Source: Callorhinchus milii (Eukaryota). From it: a DNA stretch of 64,000 nt. This document shows positions 3,001-59,068 of the stretch, one piece after another; position 1 is the first letter of the stretch; every line of letters starts with the position of its first letter. The translations under genes and the position numbers were made by a program. Under the pieces are notes generated by a model. The model was given only the letters and a program-made list of their open reading frames with translations, was not told the DNA's origin and searched no databases. The stretch lies in NCBI RefSeq assembly GCF_018977255.1, contig NW_024704763.1, positions 2,294,001-2,358,000 on the forward strand. Reading direction: 5' to 3'.

Positions 3001-6000
3001 GCTTAGTTTTAGAACACTCTTACAGAGGACCTCTTGGTGGATAATGCAGTGTAGAAAAACAATATTCTGTTCTGGATTTGTTTCTTTGACTTGATCTTGA
3101 ATTCTTTTCAGTAACCCAACATTTTTGCCTGTCAGATTTGGGCTTCCATCGGTGGTCACATTCACCAATTTTTTCCACTCCACTCCTAATTTTAAGATAC
3201 ACTTATTTACTGCCTCCAAAAAGTCTTCTCCAGTTGTCGTATCTTCTCATTGACTGCATTGATGCTAATTCTTCTGTGAGCTCAAAATGTTTGGTGATAC
3301 CTCGAATAAAAATTATCAACTGGGCTGCGTCTTTGACATTACAACTCTCATTGGGTGCCAGTGAAAAACATGCAAAATTGCTTAATTTATTTTGTAGCTG
3401 CAGATACAGGTTCTCAGAGATATCTTCGACACACCTCACAATAGTTCGCCTTGACAAGCTAATGTTCTCGAACCGTTTTTTTCTTGTCTGGGCATAAAAT
3501 CGAGGCAGAGTCAACCACACATTGCTTTATAAATTCTCCATCAGAGAATGGTTTGCTGTTCTTGGCGATTTTGTGTGCAATCACTTAACTCCTGTAATCT
3601 GATCCTCGGAGGCAAATTAATAATAATAATAGTAATAATCCTTGCACTTGATATAGCGCTTTTCACGTCTTCTAGACGCCTCAAAGCGCTTCACAGAATA
3701 TGCTGTAAAGTGAATTGACTGTATATTTGTGGGTGAAACGCAGCAGCCAATTGCGCACAGCAGCGTCCCACAAACAGTCGTGGATTGAAAATGGCCAATT
3801 TTATTTTTGTTTTGGAGGGATTATTATTAGGCGTGTGGAGTAAGGAAACTTGCCCAAGGTTTCGTCCTTCCTGGAAAAGAACCCAGATGGCTCGCTTGCA
3901 AGGCGAGTGCTCTAACCACTGAGCTACAGGACTCCACTTTCACAAATTGTTTTGTGAAAATGCTTTGTTCTTTTTGATTTGATCAACCATCTCACCAGCT
4001 TTCTTTCCTTCGGCAGAAACGTTCTTATATTTGCAAGCATGTTTGCTCTCAAAATGGCGATTCAAGCTGTAGTCTTTGAGCACTGCCACACTTTATTTGC
4101 AAATTAAGCGCGCAGCTTTTCCACCCACACTGGTAAAAAAAAAAGTATTTAGGAGTCCATTCTTTGTTGAATATTCGGCCTTCAGCGTCCACTTTCCGCT
4201 TCTTTGGCAAACTCATTTCGAATTAACGTCCTCTTCAGTGAAAAGTATTGCCGCGGTTGCCGCGAGCGTGTTTGAAAATTTGCCGATCCGTACATTTCTG
4301 ACTTCAGCCCTGATTCAACACTTAAGGGAACGTGCGCACAACTAAGCCGTGCGAGTGGCCGATGTTCCCGGTCTGATTGAAATGCTAAATTTGTGGGACT
4401 TTCTGGGACTGAACGAACTATAATATTTTTCCTATTGCTAGACACCATGACGGGCTGGATGCAATCATTTCGCGGGTCGGATAAGGCCCACGGGCCGTAT
4501 TTTGCCCACCCCTGGTCTAAGCTGATCACCAACAACAACATTTATACAGCACCCCTCACACAAGGTAGCATCTCGGAGCGCTCAACAGTGGCGGTGCTTA
4601 ACATCAAGCTGGTGGGTAGTGGGGGGAAAGAGATGACCATAGGCATGGTGGAGGAGGAAGGTCTCAGGTGCAATCTGAAGACAAGGAAGGAGGAGGGATT
4701 GAGGAAGAGAGTTCCATAGTTTCAGGGCATAGGAGCTGAAAGCACGGCTCCCGGTGGTGGTGCAGAGGGGACGAGGAACAGACAGAAGGCCAGAGAAAAG
4801 GTCTCATGGCAATATTCGAAAAGAGAAGGGAGTTTCTCTCTTAGTCAATCATCCTCCAAAATAAATTAATGATACACTTCATTGCGGTGTCTAACTCGCA
4901 CTCGCCTCGCAAGTGAGAGACCTGGGTTTGATTCCTGGCAGGGTGAAGCCTTTTCTTAATTCCATAGGGCCTGATAATAATCCCTCAAGAGAAAAAAATA
5001 ATAAATTGGTCACTTCAATCCACGACTGTTTGTGGGACGCTGCTGTACGCAATTGGCTGCTGTGTTTTGCCCACAAATATACAGTCAATTCGCTTTACAG
5101 TCCATTTTGTTAAGCGAGTCTAGAAGACCTGGAAAGCGCTATATCAAAATGCAAGGATTATTTTTTATGGCTGTACAAGATACAGTTGTTACACAGTAAA
5201 TCTGATATGAAAGCTGCTGTATCGAATTCAAAGATTAATTGATTATATCTTTCTTACAGTCCTACACCTCAACAACAAGAGTAAACTCCAACTCAGAGTA
5301 ACCCTTACAAAACATGACATGTGGCCTTGACTACATGTCCCTACTTGTTATCTGGGATCCTTTGAATCATTAATCTTTTACTTTTTTTTAAAAAAAAAAT
5401 TGTAACCTCGACCTAGTCCCTGATCTTCAGTCAAAGTAGATAACGAAGAGATAGACTTGAAACGTCAGTCGAAAATCAAGGGCATTACACACAATACGCC
5501 TGGTGGCTGTGCAGAATTTTAAAGAAAAGTAGAGCAAAAATCTCCCTTCTGTACCAAGGGTCACAAAGAGTAAAGAGAGTTTAGTCACGGCAGTTGATCC
5601 AGATTGCTGCTACATCTTAAATCCAACACAAAATTGTCCCTTTAGGGAGGTGTAAGGTAGTACATGAGCATTAATAATAATACTTGCATTTGATATAGCG
5701 CCTTATCAAGTCATTGAGACGTCTCAAAGCGCTTCACGGAATATATAGTAAAATGTACCGACTGTGCATTTTGTGGGCTAAACGCCACAGTCAATTGTGC
5801 ACAACACTGTACCACAAATAGCCACGTATTGAGTGACCCAATTTTAAGAAAAAAACATAAAGAAACAAACCAGAAACGCACCCACTCCCCCTCCCCTCAA
5901 CCTTTAAGTGCCAGTCTGAAAAAGGACAAAGACCGAAGGAATGTAAACTTCCAGAGGATTACTTCTGAATCAATTTAGACAAATTCAGAACAGGAGTAGG

Positions 6001-12903: not shown

Positions 12904-14026
12904 ATGCTGAGCAGGCTGCATGAGCTAAAGAAAGAGGAGGAGGCCCTAATGAAAATCAAAACCACTTTACAAGATCAATTGAACCGACTCAAGGTATAAA
13001 CCGGAATTTTACGACCCCCCCCCCCCCTTGGGCCGTCTTTCGGACATTTTCTCATCCCACTACCCACCACAGCAAACCATGTACTGAGTAACAGCAGCGA
13101 GCCATTCATTATGGGGTAGGAAGCACGGGAACCACAATGCATAGTGAATGCAGGCACTGGTTTTGAAGGTAGATTCCAGCGGATGTGTTATAACATAAGT
13201 CTTGTACGAATCTTCCACCAGGTGGAAGAGCTGGCTCTGAGATCAATCATCATGACCAGAGAACACAATGAAGAGGAAAACTCTGGTCAAAGAATTGAAG
13301 CAGCTGATGACACAGAGGTGAGAAATGCAACTCGCAAACTTTTTATTTGAATCGTTCAGTTGTCAAAGTTCCAGCAACTGCAGAGAACTTCAGTTAACGT
13401 AGTGTAATGACTGTGTATTTTGTAGGCGATTCATGCCTCTCTCTGGCATTTGCTAATGCTTATTGACTCTTTTCCATGCCACTCTACCATTGTTTCCCTA
13501 TATGTTCTTGTCCCCACTTCTGTGTTTGCAGTTGTTTCCTGGCTCTGATCTCTGCTAATGTTGAGCATTGCGCCATGCTGCAATGTCACAAATTGGTACA
13601 CAAAATGGTTACTCAACAGATCAGGAAGTAAATGCCAATAATATTAAAGCTTGCATTGGTATAGCGTCTTATCATGTTGTTGAAATGTTTCAAAGTGCTT
13701 CAAGAATATATTGTAAAGTGGAGTGACTGTATATTTGTGGGCAAAACGGTTTAGGGACAAAAGAAGTCTTCTAAAGAAGAATTGTTTTAAATGCAAAAGT
13801 TTTAACGATATAGTTATATCTGTTGTGGAATGACTGTTATCCTGATCTAACCAATTACTTTTGCAAATAGTCAGAGATGCAGGTGGACGATGAAACTGCC
13901 ATCAATCAAACCCAGCTTGAGTTGGGCACCTCACAGTGTGTCAGTTACATTGGAGAAGGAAATGATGGTGAGGAGGCAGAAGAGGAAGAAGAAGAGGAGG
14001 GTGATGAGGAAGGTTACGACTCCTAG
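12904..14026 (+). CDS. SNAPC5: snRNA-activating protein complex subunit 5 (about 113 aa)
   Basis: Exons 12904-12993 (MLSRLHELKKEEEALMKIKTTLQDQLNRLK), 13222-13317 (VEELALRSII...), 13871-14026 (VDDETAINQTQLEL...acidic tail, TAG). Phase-0 GT-AG introns. AATAAA at 14354. Confidence 0.93.
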
Positions 14027-15915
14027 AAGTAATTTCATTGAGAAGAATGCAGAATGACGGCACAAAGAGAATGCACCTTTTTTTTATCATTTAAGCTTGG
14101 AGGCTGAATGGCACTGGATATGTAATTGACAACAAAGATGGTTCAGGGCACATGAGACACCAGGAACAGTTGCCAGAGAACTGATTAGCAAAGAAGACAG
14201 GACACAACTGATGGTTTATCTGTGACCTGGAATCTGCTTATTGCTGAAATATTGTGCTGAGTTCCAGATATCTAACTTATTCTGCCACCCATCAGATGCT
14301 AATGTAAATAGTGTTCGAGAGAGAAAAATTTACGATTAACTCTCTGATTCGCAAATAAAGATGCACTGTACATTGTTGGCGCAACAAAAGCTGTGAAAAA
14401 CACGAAGTAGGAAAACCAGAGGTTGAGACGTTAAGATATACTGATCTTGTGGAAGCCCAAGAAAATATATCCATATGTTTCATGTTGGACCTTAGTAGCA
14501 AATTGAAATATTCCAGTATAATTTTTGTCCCAGTGCAATGATCCCTACCATTTATTGATGTAATTTAAGCACGTCTAATAGTAGATGATCAATACTGCAG
14601 ATTGGGAGGGCAAGTCAGAACTGTTGCCCAGTACTGTATTCAGCAAAAGAATAGAATACACCTGCCGTTGGTCTGCTTTGTACATGTTCCTCATCTTCAC
14701 AATTAAGCGCTGTTCAATTTCTGGGGACATTTGTAACCCAATTGCCAGTTCCTTCTATGTGAGCTCAGGTTTTCGTTGCTCAAATATTTGGCCTCTGAAG
14801 TAAGTAAATTCATAGAGATTATCGGTGAACATCTTGACTTTCTGTTGCTTTCTTTCCCCAACACTGTAAATATTATAGGACATATGGTATTATTTGTGCC
14901 ACATGTTGAACCTTGCTTCCAGTTCCCTTTTCAGCAAGGTCCCAGTGCAGATAGAAAAGGTTCCTAATGAAATGTTTAGATTTTGTGCATCTGTTATTCA
15001 AAATTGAGTGGGGCGCTGGGGGGGGAGAGAAGAAATTCTACTGGGTTTAGATTTGCTCCCTTTGCTCAGCATTTCAGAACGTGCTGAATTTCGCGTTTTG
15101 TCCAATTCAGCCTCGAAGCCGGTTTTCTGTGGTTCGTAAAAGCGCTTAAAAGAAAGCAGCCTTCAACATGAAGCCTGCATTTAATCTGCCAAGTTGTGCA
15201 ATACTCTGAAATACTGAGAAAGGGAGAATACATCTGGAGCCTGTTGCAATGTCCTGCCGCTGTGAGGTGTTAAATCTATTTGATGTGTGCACTTTAACCT
15301 CCCCCTACAATAGCATTGAACACGCTCCCCTTTATGCACTGAAAGTTAATGCTCATTTTTTTTTTGGGGTGGGGGGGGGGGAAGAGTGTGGGGGGAAGGG
15401 GGTTGAATGCGTTTTTAATACATTTATATAACACCCTTCACTGTGAAGTAGAGAAGGAACACAGGAGACTTGTCCTGACTGCCCTCTCCCCACGGGTGAG
15501 GAGAGCTCTCGGCTGAGTTCCTGTGACCCTTTATTAGGAAACGTGTAGCAGTCTTAAGAAGGGAGGAGGGAAATACAGGAGTTAAAGAAATGGGAGGACG
15601 CGGGAGGAGGAAGAGAACTGCTTTTCTGTTGTACTTTTGTATCCTCTGGCTGGTTAAAGTGTTTATACAGGAGTATAACCTGCAGAATGATCCAATCTTT
15701 GCCCTGAAATCGAAGCTTTTCCCAGCATTTTGTATTGAACGAAACTGTTGCAATATTCCCACAGGTCTGCGCACGTGGAAATTTTGTACAAGGAGAGTTT
15801 GGGTTGCAAACGTGAGAAAGCTAAATTGCACGGCTCCCAAGAATAGTCAATAAATAAGGTTAAAGTGATGCCTCTTTTATTACCGGTGTACAGGGCTCTT
15901 AAGCGACGAGAATCC

Positions 15916-18775
15916 TCAGTGAAAGCGGATGCGTCGAATGGATCCCATGGTCGCCCTCGGAGCTCCCCACTCGCTGTAACTATTGTAATCTCTTTTCTCC
16001 AGAACGTAGTGTGGTCCACGGTAATGTGGTTCCTGGTAGCCCACCCAGCTGTGATTTATTGAAAACAAATTACAAGTCCATTGGCCAGCCGCCAGGTGAA
16101 TTTAAAGCCACTTAATAATAATAATAATAATAATCCTTGCATTTGATATAGCGCTTTTCACGTCGGGAGGACGTCCCAAAGCGCTTCACAGAACACACTG
16201 TAAAGTGAATTGACTGTATATTTATGGGCGAACGCGGCAGCCAATTGCGCACAGCAATGTCCCACAAACAGTCGTAGATTGAAAATGACCAATTTATTAT
16301 TGTTTTGGGTTTTGGAGGGATTATTATTAGGCTCTGTGTGGAGTAAGGAAACTTGCCCAAGGTTTCGCCCTCTGCCTGGAATTGAACTCAGGTCTCTCGC
16401 TTGCAAAGCGAGTGCTCTAACCACTGAGCTACAGGTCTCCACATATAACAACGATTTGCACATCTAATGCCGCTCACACAGGATAGTGTTCCAGAGTGCT
16501 TATCTCCCCCCCACCCCCCACGTCAGCCCAGTGACTTATTGATGGTGCGGAATTTCCTTTGAGTCAGGGTGACGAGCTTTCCCAGCGTAGAAGAGGCCGC
16601 CTTGCTCAGATTTATTCATTAAGAAACATTTTTACAAAATGCTGCAAATTTGATCTTTTTTTTTAAAAGAAAACACATAGCTGTCAGGACATTGACACTT
16701 GCACACAAGTATCACTGATTAAAACTGCTAATAGTGTAAGCTTCTCCTGCACTTACTTGCCTCCAAGAACCCTGATAGAAGCAAAGCGATCGAGACTGAA
16801 ACGAGACATGAGATTTGGAATATCCTCTTGAATTTCTACTTTCCTTCCAGAAAAGCCAGGTCTTTCATGCAAATGGACTTTGGGTAGTGAAGTCTCCTAT
16901 TTGGATTGAAGGGGAAAAGAAGCGGGAGAAGCTTATATTAAATCTTGAACTGGATCTGTAAATGATTACGGCCAGCACACTGGGTGTTTTGCTCACCCAT
17001 AAAACAGTCACTGCAGTTTACAGTATATCCTGTGAAGTGCTTTGGGATGTCCTGACATGAAAGGCACTATATCAAATTAAGGATCATTATTTTAGAATTC
17101 CCGCTCTTCAAACTAGTACTATGTCATCTTTACAAGTGAGGTATTTTCCAACAAGGGAGCGAGAGAGGGGAGAAGTTTTACAGCTTTGATGAGAAGAAAT
17201 GTTCACAAAAATAAGTAAGCAAATAGGACGCATAGATAGGCTGGACTATGGACCTGACTCACCTGCCTCACTGCTCTCACAGAGGAGATCTGATCTGTTG
17301 ATGCCCACCATTTATCATAGCTGCCGTAATCTCGATTGTCACCGGCTTCCCACAGATATTGGCGACCACTGTAGTTCTCACCCTCGTACCCAACCCAACT
17401 GCAACAGGGAGTGAAAGGGAGAGGGAAAAGAGAATGTAATGTAGATCACAACCATGTCTGCAGTCTGTCTATGATTACAGTGGTGAGACATCACCTTGTT
17501 GACGAGTATCAACAAGATAATAATAATCCCTCCAAAAAAACCAAAAAACAATAATAAAAAAAAAATTGGGTCATTTTCAATCTACGACTGTTTGTGGGAC
17601 ATTGCTGTGCGCAATTGGCTGCCGCGTTCGCCCACAAATATACAGTCAATTCACTTTACAGTGTGTTCTGTGAAGCGCTTTGGGACGTCCTCCCGACGTG
17701 AAAAGCGCTATATCAAATGCAAGGATTATTATTATTATTATTATTATTATTATTTATCATCTACTAGGTTCCTAATAAAGAATGGGATCATCATCAGTGG
17801 AGAACAACATTGCTGTTGTGAGGAACTTTCCATGGGATATGAGGAAGTCGGATTATATAAGTAAAGTTTACATATAAACAACAACTTGCAGTTGCATAAA
17901 ACTGTTGTTCTCACTCAGACGTTTTATGCAGTAGAGCATTCTTCAGCACCAGTGTGGATTGCATTGTCTGCAATTCCACGTAAAGTCGGTGAATGTAGGA
18001 ACTGGTGGAGAATCTCAATCCACGACTGGGACGCTGCTGTGTGCAATGGGCACCCGAGTTTCGCCCACAAAATATACAGTCCATTTCACTTCACAGTATA
18101 TCCTGTGAAGTGCTTTGAGACGTCTCAACGGCGTGATAAGGTGCGATATTAAATACAAGAATTATTATTATTACTTACACTCCATCCTCAACTTGCACCG
18201 AATTGCATCTCTCGGGGAAGTTTCGCTCTGACAGTCTCGGGCAGTCGCTGGTCACTGCTAACCTCTGGCCGGTGAAGTTCCTTTGGTCGTAAAGGATCAC
18301 CTGAGACAGACAAGAAACATCAGGATATGGGCCACCAGACATGGGGGCTGAAAATGCTCTAACAATGACCTCTGGTTTGGGAGTGATATTGCGGGATTTA
18401 CTAACAAATACGCTTATGATATTAGGGGAAAAATTGCAATGCCATTATTTCACTTTCCGACCTTGTACTTTTTGTGCCTTTTCTTGGTTGAGAAACTCCC
18501 AAATCACATCTTCAGCTGCAATGGCAAACCAGGGGTCACTATTAATGTTGCAACTTCCAGGTTGCAAACATCTCATTTTCAAACCCATATTCACCAGTAG
18601 CTTATCAACATCAGAACCATGACTAATATGGCATAGTTGGTACAACACCAAGAACAACAACTTGCATTTATACAGAGCCCCTCTCGCAGGTTAGAGTCCC
18701 ACAGCACTTAAAGCAGAAGTACTCACGCAGCCATCAGACCCATGAAAAGCCCGTTGGAGTACAGACCCCAGCTTG
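15916..18775 (-). CDS. crybgx: Beta/gamma-crystallin gene, crybgx-like (first coding exon unresolved; 1-nt frameshift at the start of the last exon)
   Basis: Exons 18775-18727 (KLGSVLQRAFHGSDGC), 18300-18179 (VILYDQRNFTGQRL...CNSVQVEDG), 17398-17263 (WVGYEGENYSGRQYLWE...ISSVRAVRQ), 16896-16757 (VHLHERPGFSGRKVEIQEDIPNL...ASIRVLGG), 16047-15916 (VGYQEPHYRGPHYVLEKRDY...MGSIRRIRFH*). Four Greek-key motifs, one per exon. Minus-strand AATAAA at 15876-15881. Confidence 0.87.
16113..16440 (-). mobile_element. Full-length, little-diverged tRNA-derived Deu SINE in the last crystallin intron
   Basis: Complete head (A box gtagctcagtggttagagc, B box gagttcaattcc), core and (tta)n tail. Confidence 0.9.
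17515..17753 (+). mobile_element. 5'-truncated Deu SINE
   Basis: Matches the 3' two-thirds of the 16113-16440 copy and ends in (tta)n. Confidence 0.85.
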
Positions 18776-18809
18776 CTGTAGAGAGAACGAGGAAGTCATT
18801 CCATTTTTA

Positions 18810-19105
18810 CAATAGTAATCCTTGCATTTGACTTAGTACCTTATCATGTCTTCGAGACATCTCAAAGCGCTTCACAGGATATACTGTAAAGTGTAATGAC
18901 TATATTTTGTGGGCAAAATGCAGCAGCCAATTGTGCACAGCAGTGTCCCACAAACAGATTGAGTGACCATATTATTTATTTATTTACTGCTAGGTTAACA
19001 GAGGCGCGTGGAGTAAGGAAACTCACCTAAGGTTTTCGCCTTACCCGGGAATCGAACCCGGGCCCTCTCGATTGCGAGGAGAGCGCTCTAACCAATACGC
19101 TATAC
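18810..19105 (-). mobile_element. Deu SINE
   Basis: Same tail and core, with tRNA head ggttagagcgctc...gggttcgattcc on the minus strand. Confidence 0.8.
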
Positions 19106-19769
19106 AGTGTTATAAGAACATGAGAGAGAACGGATCAAGAAAAGGGTCTTTTGTGGAAAATTGTATTTGGAAGTTCTGCAGTTCTTGGGCAGAATTGAAT
19201 AATTTCCCAAATTATCAAACTATAACTTAAAATGTAAGGCAATGATGTCAAGGTTAAGATCTTAAGAAATTTCAGGGCTTTGCGTGTTGTTTTTTTTTTA
19301 CCAACAATTCCGTGACAATATTTTAGACACAACAAGGCAACTGAAATACATCCGTGCGAAAGAGAAACGTTCAGAGTTGGAAGTGTTCAGCAAACGCAAC
19401 CCTACCTGATTTATTCTGCTGCTCTAGGGACCTCGGTAATTTCGATCTCAGTCCCAAAGTTCGAGGAAGGGGGCAGGTTAAATACACACAGCAACATCAA
19501 TGGGTGGATTATTACAGCTGTGCTATAGATGGTTCCTGCAACTGACCCCGAGTTTATTGATATGCTAAAAGCGTTACAAAAGGCCGGGAACAATCATAAC
19601 ATCTCCATTCTCTCCATGCAAGAACCAAAAGGCAAAAGGTGAACTGTCAAAAGAGCGATTTTTTTTTGTTTTTGCAATTCAGGAGCTCAAGAAATATTAT
19701 TCTTTTGAATAATTCAAAAGTACAAATAAAAAGAGAAACCCCAAAACCGGAAATTGAGCGACAATATCA

Positions 19770-19995
19770 ATATAGAGTTGTTACGACCTGGAATGCACTG
19801 CCTGAAAGGGTGATGGAAGCAGATTCAATAATAAGTTTCAAAAGGGAATTAGATGTTTACCCGAAAAGAAAAAAAATTGCAAGGCTACGGGGAACGAGAG
19901 AGGGAGTTGGACTAATTGGATAGCTCTTTCAAAGAGCAGAGGCACTATGGGCCGAATGGCCTCTTCTGTGCTGCATCTATGATTGTATGATTCTA
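19770..19995 (+). mobile_element. CR1-type LINE 3' fragment
   Basis: RVVTTWNALPERVMEADSIISFKRELD is a typical CR1 RT C-terminus, followed by gggccgaatggcct and a short tandem tail. Confidence 0.75.
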
Positions 19996-20088
19996 TATTG
20001 TTTTGCAATAACATTTAAGGTTTGTCATGTGCAATAACATCGCTTTGTAAAGGGGGAATTGTTGTTGTGAACGGACTGTGCAGCTTAC

Positions 20089-20955
20089 ATCTCGTTTGTC
20101 CATTGCTAGTTCATTTGTGATGCACTTTGTTGATGGCTCCCTAACTACCTATTGGTTTGCATTCAGTTCTGATTCATATTGAACACCACTCGGCCTCTTA
20201 TAACTCATCAGTTGTCAATGGCGTCAGTAAATAAATAGCCTGTTATTTCACATATACAAAAAAAAAGTTTGCTTACCTAAGGATCCCGGCCTAAACAAAC
20301 AGTTTTGTGAGGCTAAGCTAAATTTATTGATGCATCATTGCACTTGAATAGGCATTTTCTGCCCCTTTCCACATATTTGTTTGGGAAGTGATAAATGGAG
20401 CTGGTGCTAGATTGTTCCTCAGACATTTTGTTGGTTTTGACTTTTGTGAGAGGGTTGTTTGGGAGTTGGTGAATTTATTGTGGATACTTTAACGTTTTTT
20501 GTTTCTGGTAGTCGGAGGGTTCTCTCCCGGGCCTGGATAAATGTGGAAAGGATAAAAGGTAAATATAAGAGTGTTTGAGTGTTAAAGATGTTTCTTTATT
20601 AATTAATACTTAAGCAAAAACTTTAATGTCATCATTGATTTGAGTCGGAAGTATTTATCCAATGATGCTTTTGTTATAAAATAATTATATTTTCATATTC
20701 AATTTTCCAATAGAATAAAACAACGGGTGGGGGGGCAATTTGTGTCCTTTAATTGTGGCTGTTTAATGCAGTACTACTTCTCTGCTTATTATTAGAGATG
20801 CTTATTGTCTAGCGATAGTTTTACTGCATCTTTTTAAATAGCTTTTTCTTCTCTCTCTCTCTCTCTCCTGGCATTTATTTCCTGGCAGGTTGCTGAGTGG
20901 AGGTTCTGCTATAGGAGTCGTCAGCCGAGTGCTGCTGGATTAAATCTGAAGAGAG
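20089..20955. promoter_or_regulatory. Candidate shared promoter region between the crybgx-like gene (-) and LCTL (+)
   Basis: Palindromic ttataa 20198-20203. Upstream of it on the minus strand lie a SOX-like cattgac and an AT-rich half-MARE-like tttactgac. Minus-strand donor at 20088. Plus-strand acceptor at 20887-20888 for the LCTL ATG exon. Confidence 0.45.
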
Positions 20956-30762
<9,807 letters not shown>

Positions 30763-32269
30763 ACAGCTACGGCTAGCATCGTGACCATCGCAACACGACT
30801 GATTCAGGAAGTACTGAATCTGTTCCTCTCTATTCCTGACCCCGAAGATATGAATCAAATCTCTGCTGTTAGTACAGTACAGTCAATCATTATAAAACCT
30901 CCTGCCCATGGCTGAAATTTTAGTCATTCGTGCAACAGCTTATAACCCTTGATAATATTACTTCCCCAAATAGACCACATAACTACACAACTACTTGTTT
31001 CTCACAAGTTTGCAGCAAGCAGCAAATCATACACACACACAAGGCTTTTCTGTAAAATAAAGACCATGCTTTTGCAGAACAACCTCTTCACGTGAGAATT
31101 TTACCAAGCAACTGATACGTTTTACTGCAGCATGTGTTGACAATAGTACAACCTTCTAGACTGGTTTGTGGTTTAGGAAGACGTGGGCTGAATAAAGTTG
31201 GTCAACCCATCAGTGCAGACATAGAATAGCCCAGCAACCTTTTGTACACTGAATAGAGGGAGATACAGAACTGTCACGAGAAAATTGTGTGGGTGTTCCT
31301 CAGCACTGAAATAGAAATACCTATTACACAGTTGCTCATATATTCTGCGCCTAATGGAATAAAAGTGATTTTTTTTCCTCTTACAAAGTATTAACATTTT
31401 GTTCAGTATTGTAATTGGAAGATATTAACTGCTATGTATTGTGACAGATGTTACTGCAGATTTAGGGCAACATCAAAGTGCCAGTGGAGAGCAACTCTGT
31501 AATAAATTATGATGTGAATGTGTTGCTTTCCACTGGCTCTTATTAATTTATTATAAATTTGTAGTAATTAATTTCTGAAGAGATCTGCATATTACAATTA
31601 TACACTCATTCTGCCTTGATAAAGTCACACTAACATCTAAGAGTCTTCAATTAATATCATTTTAGTGCCTTGAACTCTGGTCAGCATGCATTTATTGAGC
31701 CTATGATATACATCAGAGAAAAGTATAGATGATGGCACACGGTAATTTTGAGTTGAAGTTCAGGTGAGTTGAGCAATCACTCGAGTGACTGGTAACCTTG
31801 AACACTATAGTAAATTAGTACATCGTTTGTAGTAATAGTATTACCGTTAGATACAAAGCAGGTTTCTTTTCAACTCTTCTCTTCCAAGATATTAACAATT
31901 CAATATTTCTGAGTCGGGCATATTTTGTCTCGTTTGGTTGATATGTTAATGGCCTGAGAGGTCGGAGTTTTACATTGACAATGTATCTAAGATAAAACAA
32001 TCTTCGTAAAATAAAATTCATGCCGATTCCTTGCCCAGCTTGCAATATTCCAAATTTATTTCTCAACAGTAACTCTACACAAGAAAAAGTGTAACGTGCT
32101 CCCAAATTATATAAAAATAGATACAATCACAACTCAAATATGCATTTTCAATAGGACAGATTATTAGGTGGACTTCAAACTCCATTTTGAGAATATTTTA
32201 ACCAATTTTCTCCTTTTGTCTCTCTGGAAGGCCGATTGATCCTGGAGCACATTTGCATAAAGCCTGGCC

Positions 32270-32550
32270 TCAGCCTGACCCTGTTGGTAGCACTCTCGCC
32301 TCAGTCAGAAGGTGTGGGTTTAAGTCCCGTGTCGGGACTCTGAACTCAGTCCAGGCCGGCACTCCAATACAGTTCTGGGGGAGTGCTACACTGTTGTGTT
32401 TCGGATGAAACCGAGGTCCCGTCAACCTGTTCAGGTAGATGTTAAAGATCCTGTGGTTCTATTCGAAAAAGAGAACAGCGTTTGTTCTGGTCAACAATCC
32501 TCCATATAAAACTGGCTGTTCACTTCGGGCCAATTTGTGAGACGTTACTG
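32270..32550 (+). mobile_element. Older DeuSINE (SacSINE1/AmnSINE1-like) remnant
   Basis: tRNA-like head ggtagcactctcgcctcagtcagaagg plus Deu-type segment cggatgaaaccgaggtcc...gttaaagatcc...ctattcgaa. Related fragments near 21130-21400 (+) and 53150-53400 (-). Confidence 0.6.
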
Positions 32551-32688
32551 GCTCTCAGTATTGGTGCAACTAAGTGTAAGTTCACCACGTGGGAGAGAAA
32601 ATGTGCCGTCCTGTGCCGTGCCTTTGCACTGGAGAAGATTTTAAAAGGGTAATATCCATATTTGTTGCATTTACCTTTTGCCAGATGA

Positions 32689-35600
32689 TTATGTGAAGCT
32701 TGTCTGACTGCAGCTGATCACCGTGTTGTAACGAACAACTTCCTCGTGGTCACCATTCAAAGTTGTATCAATCGATAGATCTTAAAAAGAGGCAATAGCA
32801 ATAATATTGACATGTTCTACCAATTCTGTAACATTGCGTTTGCAACTATACTGTGCCCAGGATTTAGCTTAACAGGTCATGTGTTTGTAACCAACTATCA
32901 AATCATAATGGGATCCACTGCAGTTTACATTTTAGTTCTAACATGGGTCAGGAGTGAAATATTAGCAACTCAGAAATTCATGAAAACTTGTATTTACATA
33001 GAGCCTTTTTTGTAGGAGGTTTGAAACCCCTCACAGTGGCAGGGTTTAGGGAGAAAGGGGAGGGAGGAGGTGACCATAGAGCTGATGAGGTATGTTTTAA
33101 GGTGGGATTAAAGATAAAGAGGGTGTGGGAGCAAGGCAGCGGGATACAGCCATAGTTCCAGACGTTTGAGACGGAATGAAGGCTCGGCCATCAATGGTAA
33201 CTCGGAGGGAGGGCTCCATGTGTGCGATTAGGTAAAAGGAAAATAACTCAGATACCAAAAGGACTTTACCTGGAGTATCAAACATCACATGATCTACTGG
33301 AGGTCTGGTATTGAGCTGCCATGTTGTCTTCACCTCTTTCTGCCCATGACCACTAATAACTTCCACTCTCCACATGAACGGGTGCTCACTGCAACACAAT
33401 CAGTCAGTTAGGATATTAAACCCAACAACAACTTGCATTTATATGGTGCCCTTCACAAGGGCCAGCGTCTCAGGAGCACTTGAGAGCATTCAATATCTGA
33501 TGGAAGCCGCTTTTCTAACCGGTTTTGTATGTCTATAATTCAGTTTTGCCCTATAGTATAATTAAAATTGCACATTCAGTGCAGCACAGAAATCACAAGG
33601 TCTTTTCAATTTCTGCTCCATTCACTGTATGCCTGTATGTTTTTATTATGCATATGCTAAATGCAAGAATGAACTAAACCAGAAATAGATTTTACTAAAT
33701 ACAAAGCAAAACATGCTACACAGTCATTATTTCCCATGAGATCTAATTCCACATTGGTTTCAATAGAGTAAGGAATAAATAGTGGTCCCTTTCCTACACA
33801 TTCCAATGGATTTACGCAGCAGACTGCAGACCACATCCAGACTTCTAATAGATTTTAACTGGATTTGATTTGCATAAATCACGTCAAATAAGATGACCTC
33901 TTCAAAATATCTCCCTTGGAAACTGTTAAAAAATATATTTACAATAAAGCTAATTCTCCTGTTGAATTGACAAGCTATTAAACATAACCCTTACTTTTGA
34001 TAGTAGGCACTGATAGCTGTGGGTCTGATTGGCAGCTGAAAAGAATGTCGTTCATCCAATGGATTGTCTTTGTAGTATCGTATGCAAGATCTGTCACAAG
34101 AAAGTCCGGGAAGAGCGAGTATAAAAATGTGACAGAATGGCAGGGCAGACAAAAATAAAATAGTTTTGTATCTACTTAAAATCTTTAAGACATTAAAATC
34201 AAAATACAGTAGTTTAAATGCATTATTGCAATTATAAGTCTGAAGCCTTTAAATTGAACGTAATTACCATTACCAAACGGGGAGTGGTAATTACCATCAA
34301 AGGGAATTAGAGGGATAAAACATGTTGCAAAAAAAATTATTATGAAGCAAAAGACTGGTTGTCAAATTCTCAGACAAAATGCTGCAATTGGGCTGTCCTC
34401 ACTGCTCAGGCATAAAACCTGTGCTGCTACAAGACACAGCTATCCTTGTCATTTCTTTCTACTCAAGACTACTTATTTTTACTGGAATGCTCGAGTTGTC
34501 TGAAGCGCTCACTGTGTTAGTGCAAAGAGGTTCTCGTGACTCAGGCTGAGGAACGCACTGCAGGTCACCACCAGCTCCAGCACGTGGTGCAGCTTGTGCA
34601 GACGCTGTACCTGCTCCTCTGGACGCACGGTCGACACCAAAAAGTAATCCTGTCGAACAAACACCAGGAGACGATGAAACAAATAACAACAACAACTTGT
34701 AATTAGCACCCTTCACGTGGATAGCATCTCGGGGAGCGCTTAGATATGAAAGAAAAGCTCAAGTAATTCTGAGATCAGATTCACAGTCCTTACCAAGTAA
34801 TTCAACGTTGTCAGTTCTTGACCTGGAAGAAAAACAAGTTTTCAGAAGTTCTTCCATTTTATTATATATAATTACAAATCCTGAATGCTATGTTCATTAT
34901 CTTCCCCCCACTCCCCCCACCATCACATCATACAAAAGCTCCAAGGCGCTGCTAAACATCTACCCCCAGAAAAAGTACAAAATTACAACCAAGAACTAAA
35001 CAATATAAACCCTAGACTCATTATTCCACAATAAACCATCTGCCCGGCAACATACCTATAAAATAGTTTATGTAATCCCTCTGCAATTTATCCAGTCCTA
35101 TCTCCAAGAGCATTCGGATAGCATTGAGACCACTGACAGAGACGGTTGGCATGGTGCTATGGTAGGATTGCTGAATCAGCTTGCTGAGAGAATTATTGCT
35201 TCCTCGATGAATCTGAGAAACAATCAGATTACTTTAAAATATCCTGCTTTTGCTGGATAAAAGTACAATCATTGCAAATTCATAAAAACAACGGTTTCCT
35301 TCTCTACACCCAAGAGAATACAATCTAAATAGATAGCTGCTGCTAAATAAATCACCATCATCTGTTTCAATAAGCAGAAGATGTGCAACAACAAGTGGTT
35401 GATTCTCTGGTGAATCACCAAATTAAATTGGGTATTTTATAGATGGAAAGGATACCAGTTCGGGCACCCTGCCAGCAGTGTGAAGCACTCTCCTACCAAC
35501 AAGAAAGGAGCTGTGTAAATGTATACTTTGATATCTAAAGGATTCTAACTTGTAAGATCAGTGTTCTATCTTAATTACATAGCCTTCCTGTCTTTGCCTC

Positions 35601-38600
35601 AGTTATTATCTTTCTACTCTCTGCTGAATATTTTGGGGAAGGTGAAGGGGATTTTAGCAATGATTGGAGAGTGAGCTCACTATAGCAGGTGGCATTAAGA
35701 GGCTCAGTAATAATGTGTTTTAAGGAGAGGAAATTATCCCTTTTCTGCAGTGTAAAATAGAGGGTTTATTCCACAAAGATCAATTAAGTATCTCACTATT
35801 ATTTATTACTAGTTGCGAGCTCACATTGCTTGTGATGGTCTGAATGACCTCCTTCTGTGCTGAAATTTCTACAAAGTACAACTATATGAGGCAAACCAAT
35901 GTTGTAAGGACTGAAACTAAATTTGCAATCCCCAATTTAAAAAAGAAAAATATATTAGTAAAACAAAACTAGCATCACCAAATTATTAACTATTTGAAAT
36001 AGCAACACTCTTACATACCCATGGTTGAATGTCACCACATTTTAAGTGTTGAAGAACTAATGTTAAGCAATCCACTACATCTTGGTATGAGGAAACAGCT
36101 GAATCAAAACAAACAGAAAAATGAAATGAAATGGATCATAGAGACTATTCTGTGACACTGACTACTTGTGCTTGATCTCTCAGCAGCGAGTTTATTAGAA
36201 GACTACCTACTTTTTCTCATTCTGGTCCAGAGCTGTTCTGCAAAATCAAGGTCTCCACGTTCGAGAACAAATGACGAGTGAATGTTTGAATCCACAGCAG
36301 CGGCATCGCTCTTTAATTTCTGATTGAAAAAAAATGAAGTGGAAACAAAACATACAGCAAATAAAGTGAATGGTCAGCATCACGGGCGTCCTTTAGTAAG
36401 CTAGCTTGACAGTGGAATAGTTCACTCTACATTCCAATGAAAACACTGCTGGTTTACTGTTAGACCACTGTTGTTTTTTAAGCAACTTGTAAGCAATGCT
36501 GAGACAAGTTCATCGCTATGCAAACAGACAAAAGTACTTACAAATAAAATCGAATAGTTTGGGGTTTCATTTTGCTGCAGTTACAAAAGTACTGACTGAC
36601 ACTCTTTGTAATAAGTGTAGCTGTTTAAGATCAACGTACCAATTCAATAATTCACACATCTTCCTATAACTGCACCACATACCCATCTTGATAAGGAGCA
36701 TTCCATTTACGCAAAATAAACTTGTTCTTACAGATAATGCCAATAGTTCCTGGGAACCTTTAAGACAAGTTGCCTTATTTCCAACAAATTACACAACCCA
36801 GTTCATGAGTATTTAAGTTTACCCTCTGCTTTAATAAAAGGCAATTATTTGCCTTACATACGTATTCGTATTTAAAACTCTTAACTATACTAGTGTCAGC
36901 ATTAGAAAAAAAAACCTTACCTCTGCATCCTTTTTATTTGACTGATTATGAAAGACATCCAGCTGGTTCTTTAGGTCTGTATTAAAGATGGGACACATTA
37001 CAACGTAGAAACAAATAACTTCCAGAAAACTAATGGGAAGGAATCTCTTGGCCAACGTAAAAGTGAAAAACTCCCAATATCTTAACTTTGATATTCCTCG
37101 ATTTGATAAGAACAGAAAAAATAACTCCTTAAATTAGTGTCAGTTTCCATGACATTTGAGGCTGGAACTTTGGTTTATATGGAAATGTAAACTTTACAAG
37201 TGAAATGCTTGTCCTCTGTACCTTCAATTAATTGCTGAACAACATCAACTGCACTTTTTCCTTCTAGGACTTCTGGCCATTCAGTCTCTCCTGTTTTCAA
37301 ACCTTCAGCTAAAACCTGCCGAACACATAGGCGAAGCCACATCATCATAGTTCTTCCTCAGCATCCATAAACTGTTTATATTTAAAACAAGTGCATGTCA
37401 TCTCAATAGACTTTTAATATGGAGGGTGAATTTTCAGGGTGGGCAATGTTATACATTCAGAAATGAGACCTAAGTTGGTTAAGTACAACATTTAACGAGA
37501 TTCATATTGAAATTAATATGCAATGTTTACTGATCCTATTCACTGTATAGGGTCTTTTCCCGTGTGAAGGCTAAGCAAGCAAAGCATCATTCTGGGTTGA
37601 TATTCAAAAAAACATACTTACAAGAAGAAATTCCAGCTCTTTATATATTTGGAATACAGGGCTTCTCATGTCTCCAGATTCTACTCTGATATTCTAAAAA
37701 AAACATCAAAAATAATACAATTACCCAAAAATATTCATTGGCCACATTAAAGGAAAGTTAGTGGCAAAGCTGTCTTGCTTTCTACATCAATGCAAGCTTA
37801 ACAAATGCTGATACTAAATATTTGCTTTACTTACCAGTGTGGCAGTTGATGTGAGTGGGGGAACTTCCAAGATGCTCTCCACATTGCTCCAAGTGAAATC
37901 CACCATAATAGTACTTTGAGATTCTATAACTGTGTTCTCCACTACAGTGGAACCAAACAAATCATACTGTGCATAGCACTTGGTCGTTACCTAAATGAAA
38001 GCAATAAACTATTACTTTTCATCTTGAGGCATTCAAGTTAAAAATCTACCACCCAGCTTGGCAGGGATTTATATACAGTATCCCTAAACAAACGTACACG
38101 TCTTAATAAAAGTAAAGCCATTGAAAATGAGAGAAAAAAATACCTACTGAAGAACAAGAATGTCTGTCCTTGTGAATGTTTTTCACTCTTTCTAAACTGG
38201 TGAAAGAACTCTGGTCGACAATTGGTCCTAAAGGAATTTTAAATAAATAAATAATAATAATAATAATCAAAATGTAAAACAAATGACTTCCAGTATAATC
38301 CTTTAAATATGAAAAATTGCCAGGAAAAGGGTGTGAGCACATTAGGTACAGAACAATACGGTCTAACGACTATTCTCTAATCAAACATTACTGCAGTGAT
38401 ATTTAACGCCTTCCTAATAAGTCTAGTGAGTAAAGACACCTACTGGTGCTGCACTGCAATTTCAACGAAAATCATGGGATTAAATATCAGTCTGTACTGA
38501 GTTAGTTGATATCAACCATGGTCTTATTGCCAAATGATAACGCAAACTGCAAGCAGTGAATTCAACCGTCCAAAGCCTTTCTTATAACCGTACTTTGATG

Positions 38601-40945
38601 TCAATTCAATAACATGTTTTAAAGTAGATGGAAATAAAATTAGTAAAGGTATTGAAATACATTACTTCACTGTGAAACTGAAATAGGAGCAATTAAAACA
38701 AAGTATTCATGACCCATCTGCCTTTCGTGAAGTCTTACCATTGCATGTAACTATATGGAAAACCATTGCTGTAACGACATCCCTAGGTTTAAGAGGTTCA
38801 GCTCCCAGCCAAACAATGCCTTCAGGATCAGAGCCATCACATCTAACCCACAGCAGTGGGAGTGCAACAGATGTGCTGCAATTGACCAGTTGGGACATAT
38901 TTGGATTGTGGGCCAGAGCATACCAAGAAATCAACTGCCTACAAAGAAAGGAAAGAAACAGATAACTGTTAGAAGTACAAGACGAATATACATTGACTGT
39001 ATATACTAGGCATGTAACAAATATCACTGGTTCATGACACTATTTCAGCTATTACCTTGCCTTCATGACCGAGAGTGGCAATGGCCCGGATTTTTCTGTT
39101 AGCTTGAAAGGAGATCCATTGCTTGTTTCAGTCGTGTGAGACTCCTCCACTTCATCCTCATCTACTTTTAATGGCTGTGAGAAAGCAGAGATTAGGTCAT
39201 TCCAGTCCACTGCACTTAATTGCGCAATTAATTTAATTTTTTAAAAAAACATACTTACTGGTCTTTCTGCTATAATTATTGGGAAATTTCCATTCCAGAA
39301 TGAACGTAAGGGATTTCTGCTCTCTTCGGATATGATCTGCACATGGACCTCATCCTACAAATCAAACCAAATATTGAAGATCAGTCACCAAAATTATATT
39401 CAACCTTGATCTCTAAACAATTAACCATTAAATCAGTGGTGAAGCTGAGATGGTGCAGTATCACGAGATTTTAATCAGAAATTCTGTCAGGGTACCAGGA
39501 ATACTCTTTCCGCCTGATTTAGATATTTAAAAAAAAATTAAATGATTTTACTTTACATATTTTATCAGCCAACAAGAATAACCCAAGCCTCAAAGGCAAA
39601 ATACCTTGTACAACACTGGCTCCTTCGATGTCCCTTTCTTGCCTTGATCACACAATCTGAAAAAATAAATAGCTGAGGTAAGTTAATGTGATATTTGGTA
39701 TTTCTGGAATAATGAGATCAAATTGACCAAAAATCATTCAAACTGCTAGTGCGCTATAATACAAGGCAGACTTAAGTGCTGTAGATGTGGACTCAATCCT
39801 GCAAATCAAAGCCCTTTTGGATAAGGCAGAGTTACCTGGAGAAGCATTACGCCTGGTTCGAGCAAACGTTAAAGACGCCGAAGCACAACTCAAAAAAGAG
39901 AAGGGAGCTTTTCTGCCCCGTGTCCTGGCCAACCATTCCACCGATAAAATGGCTCGTTCAGTTCATGGCTGTTTGTGGTACTTTGCTGCGTGCAAATTTG
40001 ACAGCCACGTTCGCTTACAAAACACACAACCACTGCGCTTTACAGTAAAATCCTGTGAAGGGCTTTGCGACGTCCTCTTGACGCGAAAGGCGCCCTGTCA
40101 AACGCAAAGACTATCGCTACTGTTGTATCATCATTGCCCGGCGGGTCTATCACGGCTGCTGCACAAGGGGTTTGTTCACAACAAGATGACCTGTGTATAG
40201 CGCCTTTCACGTCGGGAGGACGTCCCGAGGCGCTGGACAGAGTACAGCATTTCAGACCCGAACTGGGGTCAGGGAGTGGATAAGGGAGGGAAGGGGAAGG
40301 TGGGTGGGGGTGGCTGATGGCATGGTCGAAGAGGAGGGTCTTGGGGGGGGGGGGTACGGGGGGGACTTGAAGGAGGCTAAGGATGTGGGGGGGGGCGCGA
40401 GGCGGAGTGACCGGGCGATGGAATTCCAGAGGTTGGGGGCGGGAGTGGCCGAAGGCTCATTGAACGCTTGGATTGGAGAAGCTTTTCAAAGAGCCGGCAC
40501 CGACGCCACGAGCCGCCACGCGACGAGACGCCACGAGACAAGACGCCACGCGAGACGCCACGCGACGAGACGCCACGCGGCGACGAGACGCCACGAGACA
40601 AGACGCCACGCGACGAGACGCCACGCGACGAGACGCCACGCGACGAGACGCCACGCGACGAGACGCCTCCTTCTGCGCCGTACAGTTCGCCGCCCCGGCC
40701 GCGGTCGGCCTGTTTCGCCCAACGGCCTCCCGCGTCAATCCGGTTCGCGGCGGGTTTCTCCCGTGAAGAAGCCCTTTGAGAGACGTCTTCCACGGCACGA
40801 TAAGGGGCGGCCTCAAGTGCAAGGCTCATCGTGATGATGATGATGATGGTTATTATGATGATGATGATGATCATCATCATCACTACACTTACTCCAGCAG
40901 AAACGTGTGGAAGTCTCGGGCGGCCTGAAGACCCGCAGCCGCCAT
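32689..40945 (-). CDS. ZWILCH: Protein zwilch homolog, RZZ kinetochore complex (about 598 aa)
   Basis: 18 coding exons: 40945-40893, 39656-39605, 39354-39259, 39174-39056, 38938-38739, 38227-38148, 37990-37835, 37693-37622, 37315-37222, 36976-36921, 36319-36211, 36098-36019, 35212-35056, 34822-34794, 34649-34513, 34090-33995, 33388-33270, 32780-32689. Motifs [42 protein letters not shown]. Phases consistent. Confidence 0.94.
40178..40460 (-). mobile_element. L2-type LINE 3' fragment in ZWILCH intron 1
   Basis: Reverse complement of the L2 3' end seen at about 8600-8893. Confidence 0.75.
40501..40666. repeat. CpG-rich 15-bp minisatellite (gacgccacgcgacga)
   Basis: Directly visible tandem units. 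Confidence 0.93.
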
Positions 40946-41714
40946 CGCCTGGTTTGGGTTTGAGAAACCCGCCCCACGATTTTCCTCTGAACACCGACCG
41001 CTGTTTCTGAGGGGAATTTGGATCAAAAACCGTATTGGTTTTCAAATGCACCTCAAAACCGAACAGCCCGCGCGCGCGCTTCCCGCCCACCGGCTCGGCC
41101 CCGCCTCCCGCCCCGGGCCCGCGCGTCACATCCGCCGGAAACCAACGCCGATATTTCAATCAACCTTTTTTTTAAAACTTTTTTTTAAAAAAAAAGCCGA
41201 AACTGATATCTTAACATAAATTAATTCCTCTCTCTCTCTCTCTCTCTCTCTCTCCCCCCTTCACCTCCAAAAAAAAAAACGTACCGTTTAAACGGAATGA
41301 AAACCCGGCCACGCGACGACCGACCGACCGACCGCCAGACAGCTCTCGCGCGCGCGTCTCACTCCGCGAAAAAAAAATAGTCCGCGCCGCGCTCGAGGTC
41401 GGTTTGGACAAAGAATTCAGAGAGTTTTTGTCCCGATATCTTTTTTTTTTCGAAGGCGCGTCGTGTTTTGAGTGTCTCTGTGTGTGTTTTTTCTCGGGAA
41501 AGAGAGAGAGGAGAGAGTTTGAGGAGTGGGGGGGGGGGGGTCGGTGGCCGTTGGGCGCTTTGTGTGTGTGTGGGGGGGAGGGGAGGGGGAGGAAGTAGTG
41601 CCGGCGGCGGGATGTTATAAAGCGAGTGGCGGTGAAGCGTCCTTCCTTTTCCTTCCGTGGCCGCCATCCCGGGAGCGGAGTCGGGGCAGTGGCGAGCCGT
41701 GAAGAACCCACAAA
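40946..41714. promoter_or_regulatory. Bidirectional CpG-island promoter ZWILCH (-) / RPL4 (+)
   Basis: ZWILCH side: attgg 41034-41038, ttcaaa 41041-41046 (CHR TTTGAA on -), E2F-like ttcccgcc 41080-41087. RPL4 side: ggaagt 41591, tataaa 41616-41621, polypyrimidine TCT/5'TOP tract cttccttttccttcc 41642-41656, YY1-like ccgccat 41661. Confidence 0.75.

Positions 41715-49122
<7,408 letters not shown>

Positions 49123-52113: not shown

Positions 52114-59068
<6,955 letters not shown>

What the first reader, a model, noticed from the sequence alone, without database searches (positions are those of the whole stretch)
15916..20956. Crystallin gene missed by the ORF track lies head-to-head with LCTL: a candidate lens gene pair
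Seen: four Greek-key exons plus an N-terminal arm exon on the minus strand, with the probable 5' end less than 1 kb from the LCTL ATG. Known: one motif per exon is the beta-crystallin arrangement, LCTL is lens-enriched in mouse, and crybgx is described from fishes with no human counterpart that I know of. Inference: an ancient co-regulated lens module, and mammalian LCTL may have kept lens expression from this promoter after losing the crystallin.
Basis: partly seen in the sequence, partly recalled or inferred. Interest (0 to 1): 0.78.

Follow-up and report, generated by a model that had tools for sequence, protein, structure and literature searches.

The report
Known lens crystallin lacking its start
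This is an already annotated fish-and-salamander lens crystallin gene (crybgx) lying back-to-back with another lens gene, LCTL; in this chimaera its ancestral first exon has lost the start codon, so the otherwise intact protein must begin somewhere else, possibly at a CUG codon.

Summary
The gene is real and already annotated. Four Greek-key exons and an arm exon (minus strand, 18775-15916) splice into an open frame identical to Callorhinchus milii crybgx in Ensembl and RefSeq. It groups with crybgx (99/99), a lineage apart from beta- and gamma-crystallins, and orthologues also occur in salamanders. It lies head-to-head with an intact 13-exon LCTL. The claimed distance under 1 kb is not shown: the exon homologous to the gar/teleost first coding exon starts 1.5 kb from the LCTL ATG. 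That exon has no ATG and has an in-frame TAA, while the rest of the gene shows no decay. None of 22 models from 14 non-neopterygian species has the teleost leader, yet the next eight residues are invariant. The protein therefore starts at a replacement ATG exon (about 0.45) or at a CUG in strong Kozak context at 18771 (about 0.3). Both genes are lens-expressed in zebrafish. Conserved synteny, a shared promoter and inheritance of that promoter by mammalian LCTL could not be tested.

The parts
15916..16048 (-). crybgx last exon, Greek-key motif 4, ending in TGA (15918-15916)
   Evidence: a contig of run X2 covers 15870-16048 and stops exactly at the acceptor
16757..16896 (-). crybgx exon, linker plus Greek-key motif 3; holds the first in-frame ATG of the spliced model
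17263..17398 (-). crybgx exon, Greek-key motif 2
18179..18300 (-). crybgx exon, Greek-key motif 1
18727..18775 (-). crybgx N-terminal arm exon (49 nt, begins KLGSVLQR; these 8 residues are identical in 17 of 17 aligned orthologues)
18769..18771 (-). in-frame CTG with A at -3 and G at +4: candidate non-AUG start (inferred)
19406..19449 (-). homologue of the gar/teleost first coding exon; strong donor in the right phase, no ATG, in-frame TAA at 19413-19411
   Evidence: rank 1 of 7064 GT-anchored sites; 13 of 1000 shuffles; donor score 9.3; codons
19302..19351 (-). first coding exon used by the RefSeq model; weak donor, no likeness to orthologues
   Evidence: donor 3.0, below all 24 training donors
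18301..18342 (-). start used by the Ensembl model: an ATG in the intron, read into motif 1, which leaves out the conserved arm exon
20149..20203 (-). candidate alternative first exon: TATA-like 20203-20195, ATG 20162 in poor context, donor 5.6, in frame with the arm exon (unproven)
19450..20955 (.). divergent intergenic region; strong unused donors at 20277 (minus) and 20558 (plus) and an acceptor at 20888 (plus) may mark non-coding first exons of both genes (inferred)
20956..30762 (+). LCTL (lactase-like/KLPH): 13 coding exons, 568 aa, one GH1 domain, hydrophobic C-terminus
   Evidence: spliced contigs in runs X2 and X3
15876..15881 (-). AATAAA, likely crybgx poly(A) signal, 22 nt from the AATAAA of the converging SNAPC5 transcript (15849-15854, plus)

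Best explanation
The locus is the chimaera orthologue of crybgx, a four-Greek-key lens structural crystallin with a beta-type gene layout (one motif per exon) that forms its own lineage. It is transcribed away from LCTL across an intergenic stretch of at most 1.5 kb. SHOWN: gene structure, identity, intact coding frame, normal rate of change, head-to-head layout, and a first exon that is kept as sequence but has no ATG and has a stop. INFERRED: the gene still makes protein in lens fibre cells, and translation begins at a replacement start just before the invariant arm, either an ATG on another small first exon (about 0.45) or the CUG at 18771 (about 0.3). INFERRED more weakly (about 0.5): the intergenic stretch holds lens-fibre elements that act on both genes, as for Cryba4-Crybb1. 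The confidence below is for identity plus a working gene with a replaced start, not for the shared promoter.
For: Core identical to the annotated C. milii crybgx. Tree: crybgx clade 99/99, sister to sharks 100/97; end branch 0.16 against about 0.17-0.22 from the same fork to shark tips. 53-80% identity to orthologues in each motif exon. All splice sites canonical, no frameshift. The first-exon homologue ranks 1 of 7064 GT sites in the window and 1 of 95 locally. No in-frame ATG before motif 3 in the spliced model. 0 of 22 non-neopterygian models carry the teleost leader against 66 of 78 others. Zebrafish crybgx is lens-fibre expressed; Crybgx and Lctla proteins are both in zebrafish lens; mouse Lctl rises in fibre differentiation and its loss gives suture cataract.
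Against: Without the GT anchor at least 10 of 127,214 positions outscore the first-exon homologue, and I chose the profile after seeing the match, so the homology rests on position, strand and phase. Homologous leaders in Carcharodon and Erpetoichthys models do hold a Met, so loss of the AUG is not universal. 12 of 78 other models also miss the leader, so annotation error explains part of the pattern. crybgx and both lctl paralogues fall together in three zebrafish data sets, but at most one paralogue can be the neighbour, so this shows lens expression and not a shared promoter. No gammaN sequence was in the tree.
Confidence: 0.75

Rival explanations
1. Non-AUG start as the sole start. The mRNA splices the disabled first exon to the arm exon and ribosomes begin at the CUG at 18771, giving a 191-residue protein that starts Met-Gly. 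The same may hold in sharks, coelacanth, bichirs and salamanders, with the AUG leader fixed only in gar, bowfin and teleosts.
For: The donor at 19406 is among the strongest in the region, 9.3. The CUG is the first in-frame near-cognate codon after the stop with both A-3 and G+4. Conservation starts abruptly at K-L-G in all models, with 19 different ends before it among 22 non-neopterygian models. The coelacanth Ensembl model begins with Ile at the Met position. RefSeq and Ensembl use different and poorly supported starts here.
Against: The Leu codon could not be read in any other species. A downstream hairpin is marginal: 4 of 200 shuffles in one of four windows tried, 10 to 62 of 200 in the others. 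Two out-of-frame ATGs follow in the arm exon. Carcharodon has a Met one codon upstream in a homologous leader. Sole CUG starts are rare in vertebrates (own knowledge).
Confidence: 0.3
2. The pairing is incidental. crybgx and LCTL are neighbours in a compact block, each with its own promoter, and mammalian LCTL lens expression owes nothing to the crystallin.
For: Head-to-head pairs are 4943 of 20,591 adjacent mouse pairs, and only 18% of pairs under 5 kb are co-expressed in lens against 11% of more distant ones. The block has been reshuffled: SNAPC5 lies beyond crybgx here rather than between RPL4 and MAP2K1 as I recall for human, and the teleost locus L001 has a different gene downstream. KLPH protein is reported in lens epithelium while crybgx is fibre-restricted.
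Against: Two lens-preferred genes lying 5'-to-5' within 1.5 kb is unlikely by chance. Strong unused donors at 20277 and 20558 would bring the two starts within about 300 nt (inferred).
Confidence: 0.4
3. crybgx is a young pseudogene in this chimaera: loss of the start codon and a stop in exon 1 have silenced it.
For: Two disabling features in the first exon. crybgx is lost or reduced in blind fishes and is missing from my searches for several lineages, so it is dispensable.
Against: Both lesions fall in 14 of 206 codons (7%) and the other 192 codons and all splice sites are intact. The branch is not long. A contig of run X2 ends exactly at the last acceptor, as a spliced RNA would (RNA status is a guess).
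Confidence: 0.12
4. The broken first exon is an assembly error or a rare allele.
For: One assembly was read; the window has N gaps elsewhere.
Against: Two separate changes are needed (ATG and stop), and both public models of this species avoid the exon.
Confidence: 0.06

Closest known systems
crybgx / betagammaX-crystallin (zebrafish NP_001028894, Q45FX8; C. milii XP_007907816.1, A0A4W3KEM7)
   Same: Same gene: core identical to the C. milii entries, 58-74% per motif exon to zebrafish, same invariant arm, same clade.
   Different: The 15-residue AUG leader of gar, bowfin and teleosts is disabled here. Both public models of this species use other, unsupported starts. Orthologues in salamanders are filed as gamma-crystallin A/C-like, against the label 'fish specific'.
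beta-crystallins CRYBA/CRYBB
   Same: One Greek-key motif per exon and an N-terminal arm on extra exons (Kappe 2010, PMC2929430).
   Different: Outside the beta clade in my tree (beta 98/95, crybgx 99/99, root unresolved). No C-terminal extension. The arm is the best conserved part. Oligomer state unknown.
Mouse Cryba4-Crybb1 head-to-head pair (PMC6336207)
   Same: Divergent lens genes within 5 kb (3301 bp there; at most 1.5 kb here).
   Different: There, two crystallins with measured co-transcription; here a crystallin and a Klotho-family membrane protein with no measured starts, co-expression or conserved linkage.
CUG-initiated vertebrate proteins such as p61Hck (recalled, from no call)
   Same: No in-frame AUG, a near-cognate codon in strong context, Gly after the start.
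   Different: Not shown here; a replacement ATG exon is at least as likely.

Membership tests
crybgx | Four beta/gamma Greek-key motifs in two domains | tested here: met
   PF00030 in all four exons; joined frame open
crybgx | Groups with named crybgx proteins | tested here: met
   17-row clade 99/99 in a 39-row tree
crybgx | Conserved KLGSVLQR arm before motif 1 | tested here: met
   exon 18775-18727; invariant in 18 of 18 rows
crybgx, gar/teleost type | AUG-started 15-residue leader on exon 1 | tested here: not met
   homologous exon has no ATG and a TAA
crybgx | Lens-fibre expression | not testable with these tools
   shown for zebrafish only; tissue of the laid runs is not given
beta-crystallin (CRYBA/CRYBB) | One motif per exon | tested here: met
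   definition in PMC2929430
beta-crystallin (CRYBA/CRYBB) | Falls inside the beta clade | tested here: not met
   separate clade; betaA1/A3, A4 and B3 not sampled
gamma / gammaN crystallin | Two motifs on one exon in at least the N-terminal domain | tested here: not met
   intron between motifs 1 and 2 and between 3 and 4
bidirectional lens gene pair (Cryba4-Crybb1 kind) | Head-to-head within 5 kb | tested here: met
   1507 nt from first-exon homologue to LCTL ATG
bidirectional lens gene pair (Cryba4-Crybb1 kind) | Mapped divergent starts and co-transcription in lens | not testable with these tools
   contigs cannot show starts or strand
bidirectional lens gene pair (Cryba4-Crybb1 kind) | Linkage conserved across vertebrates | not testable with these tools
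   only L001, which lacks the upstream side; no coordinates in the supplements read
non-AUG-initiated gene | No usable in-frame AUG and a near-cognate codon in strong context | tested here: inconclusive
   true for the exon 19406 + arm model, but ATG-bearing alternative exons exist
non-AUG-initiated gene | Start codon conserved across species; initiation shown by ribosome profiling or N-terminal peptide | not testable with these tools
   only proteins of other species were available
pseudogene | Lesions through the coding region and faster change | tested here: not met
   192 codons intact; branch 0.16

The most novel reading that the evidence does not exclude
Outside gar, bowfin and teleosts, crybgx is a lens crystallin started at a conserved CUG. 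Its invariant arm then begins Met-Gly and could be myristoylated and membrane-seeking. It is transcribed with the suture membrane protein LCTL from one bidirectional lens promoter as old as jawed vertebrates. The crystallin survived into salamanders and was lost in amniotes, leaving LCTL with the promoter.
Probability: 0.12. Interest if true: 0.72.

Novelty: new member of a known kind. Interest (0 to 1): 0.35.

Why it matters
crybgx has no functional study according to the zebrafish lens atlas preprint, and mouse LCTL loss causes suture cataract. If the pair shares a promoter, it would explain how a Klotho-family gene became lens-preferred and would point to the human regulatory DNA worth screening. 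If the CUG start holds, it would be a non-AUG crystallin and would correct the N-terminus in the models of 14 species, which now disagree. The salamander orthologues move the loss of this third beta/gamma lineage into tetrapods. If neither holds, this is an ordinary annotated gene with a mis-modelled first exon.

Tried and rejected
No own genome is held, so nothing outside the window could be read for this species. Run search: no RNA holder listed; eight rows are RNA by guess only. Laying four of them was swamped by SINE repeats; no listed piece bridges the first-exon junctions and the tables were cut, so nothing follows about the 5' end or the TAA. Plain protein alignment of five orthologue leaders against 18301-21000 found nothing above shuffles; only the donor-anchored profile did. 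Synteny searches: metagenome scan gave 1 vertebrate locus of 3, without the upstream side; genome and viral scans gave none; the four supplements searched for linkage gave no coordinates; the catshark and cichlid supplements could not be read and may bear on co-expression and linkage. tblastn of odd N-termini against the window gave only low-complexity hits in the part of the output shown. The AlphaFold model had pLDDT 43 and was not used. The 50%-representative search was filled by long multi-domain proteins and added no orthologue. The gene downstream in L001 found no match in PDB, Pfam or the Atlas. The bacterial promoter scan is irrelevant here. Earlier findings of the scan: none bearing on this gene. 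Considered and rejected: a beta-crystallin paralogue (tree), a gamma or gammaN gene (exon layout), an unannotated gene.
Full report
Observation. The four Greek-key exons are real: 18300-18179, 17398-17263, 16896-16757 and 16048-15916 on the minus strand, each flanked by AG and GT, with junction phases 2, 0, 2, joining to 176 open codons and TGA. Each matches Pfam PF00030 above its cut-off. A 49-nt arm exon at 18775-18727 is in frame. LCTL begins at ATG 20956 on the plus strand; 13 exons with AG/GT ends give an open 568-residue frame with a GH1 domain, and contigs of runs X2 and X3 bridge LCTL introns (RNA status is a guess). The head-to-head layout is confirmed. The claimed distance under 1 kb is not (see below).

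Identity. A profile of the four exons returned as best hit the Callorhinchus milii 'Crystallin beta gamma X' of Ensembl/UniProt, which holds the window's 176-residue core letter for letter; RefSeq has it too (XP_007907816.1). So the gene is annotated and was missed only because it is spliced. In a 39-row tree it lies in a crybgx clade (99/99), sister to five sharks (100/97), apart from beta (98/95) and gamma (99/98) clades, with the three-way split unresolved. No gammaN, betaA1/A3, A4 or B3 was sampled. One motif per exon is the beta layout (Kappe 2010, PMC2929430, parts 1-3 of 6 read), so it is beta-like in gene structure without being a beta-crystallin.

Range. Three word-limited searches and cluster look-ups found orthologues in 7 shark species, coelacanth, bichirs, sturgeon (fragment), gar, bowfin, many teleosts and three salamander genera, the last filed as gamma-crystallin A/C-like but nested in crybgx. 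The zebrafish lens atlas preprint calls the gene fish specific (10.1101/2020.12.09.418533, passages). No listed hit came from rays, carpet sharks, lungfish, frogs, amniotes or lampreys; only part of the large clusters was listed, so this is weak evidence of absence.

The first exon. Gar, bowfin and teleost proteins begin with a 15-residue leader before the arm. A nucleotide profile back-translated from 21 such leaders ranks the donor at 19406 first of 7064 GT sites in the window and first of 95 on the local minus strand; the site is in the right phase, 630 nt upstream of the arm exon. Its translation scores above 987 of 1000 shuffles and the donor scores 9.3 on a matrix of 24 donors from the window (range 4.5-11.2). 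Against this: I built the test after noticing the match, unanchored scoring gives at least 10 better positions among 127,214, and plain alignment found nothing. This exon has GAG ATC where the ATG should be and TAA at 19413-19411. In the spliced model all seven ATGs before the middle of motif 3 are out of frame. The exon starts 1507 nt from the LCTL ATG.

The gene is not decaying. The lesions lie in 14 of 206 codons; the other exons are intact and 53-80% identical to orthologues per motif; the first eight arm residues are identical in 17 of 17 aligned orthologues. The end branch is 0.16, no longer than the shark paths from the same fork. A 290-letter contig of run X2 covers 15870-16048 and stops at the last acceptor with 111 letters left unlisted, as a spliced RNA would.

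Where it starts. Ensembl starts in the intron at 18342 and drops the conserved arm; RefSeq uses ATG 19351 with a donor scoring 3.0. The fourth is the in-frame CTG at 18771 with A-3 and G+4. The trouble is general: 0 of 22 models from 14 non-neopterygian species have the teleost leader, against 66 of 78 others, and they show 19 different ends before the invariant Lys. The coelacanth Ensembl model keeps the leader but begins with Ile; Carcharodon and Erpetoichthys keep it with a Met nearby; 13 of the 17 leaders tested show no likeness above shuffles. A hairpin after the CTG is marginal. I put a replacement ATG exon at about 0.45, CUG at 0.3, pseudogene at 0.12 and assembly error at 0.06. No paper on non-AUG crystallin starts came up (listing only).

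The pairing. Zebrafish crybgx is lens-localised (PMC13762441 passages); Crybgx and Lctla proteins are both in lens (PMC12232379 supplement rows); mouse Lctl rises in fibre cells (PMC4225139 passage) and its knockout gives suture cataract (PMC13168428 passages; Fan 2018 seen only as a cited title). crybgx, lctla and lctlb fall together in three zebrafish data sets (supplement rows of PMC8624534, PMC9456529, PMC10606920), but both paralogues do, so this shows lens expression only. The precedent is Cryba4-Crybb1; in that study 296 of 1643 close pairs were co-expressed (PMC6336207 passages). Strong unused donors at 20277 (minus) and 20558 (plus) and an acceptor at 20888 could mark non-coding first exons that bring both starts within about 300 nt; this is inference. 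Linkage elsewhere could not be tested: the single vertebrate locus found, L001, holds motifs 3 and 4 but not the upstream side, and its downstream neighbour is not SNAPC5. I recall zebrafish crybgx lying next to an lctl paralogue but could not verify it. The claim about mammalian LCTL is untested.

In print. 'crybgx' occurs in 10 library papers. In the main texts searched for both terms (PMC7502198, PMC10368750, PMC13762441, PMC11979771, PMC12232379, the atlas preprint) none names both genes; searches (listings; 25 of 52 shown) showed no paper on the pair. PMC11979377 was seen as passages. Subscription papers that first described the gene are not held, and two supplements could not be read.

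Verdict. Known gene, real head-to-head layout, unproven co-regulation. What is new is modest but testable: the disabled first exon with an unresolved, possibly CUG, start, and survival of crybgx in salamanders. Interest 0.35.

Noticed in passing
window 12904-15870 (+): SNAPC5 (Pfam PF15497) lies tail-to-tail with crybgx; contigs of all four laid runs cover most of 14500-15868, and the two AATAAA signals are 22 nt apart (15849-15854 plus, 15876-15881 minus), so the 3' ends abut. In human I recall SNAPC5 between RPL4 and MAP2K1, so it has moved.
   Followed up: partly
window 41700-48800 (+): RPL4 with two SNORD16 and three SNORD18 copies in its introns, head-to-head with a minus-strand gene at about 32000-41000 that I take for ZWILCH from recall and position (no family hit obtained).
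   Followed up: partly
window 500-1750 (-) and 55000-59100 (-): A short-chain dehydrogenase (RDH-like, PF00106) and MAP2K1-like kinase exons (name recalled) flank the block; an RDH-type gene near two lens genes was not examined.
   Followed up: no
window 2085-3526 (-): Long frames that look like a broken hAT/SPIN-type transposase (recalled likeness) inside the dehydrogenase region.
   Followed up: no
L001 4652-4798 (-): Last exon of a gene converging on crybgx in this teleost-like contig; it resembles the C-terminus of cysteinyl-tRNA synthetase CARS1 from memory, with no tool match.
   Followed up: partly
window 23442-23570 and 26442-26568 (+): LCTL has NNP where GH1 enzymes have the acid/base NEP motif but keeps the ENG nucleophile motif (motif names recalled), in line with a non-catalytic Klotho-type domain.
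   Followed up: no
window 16160-16460, 17560-17730, 18050-18150, 18810-19100: Every crybgx intron but one carries copies of a tRNA-derived SINE (one hits Rfam tRNA at 16372-16434); two 16 kb and 17.6 kb copies are near-identical and inverted.
   Followed up: no
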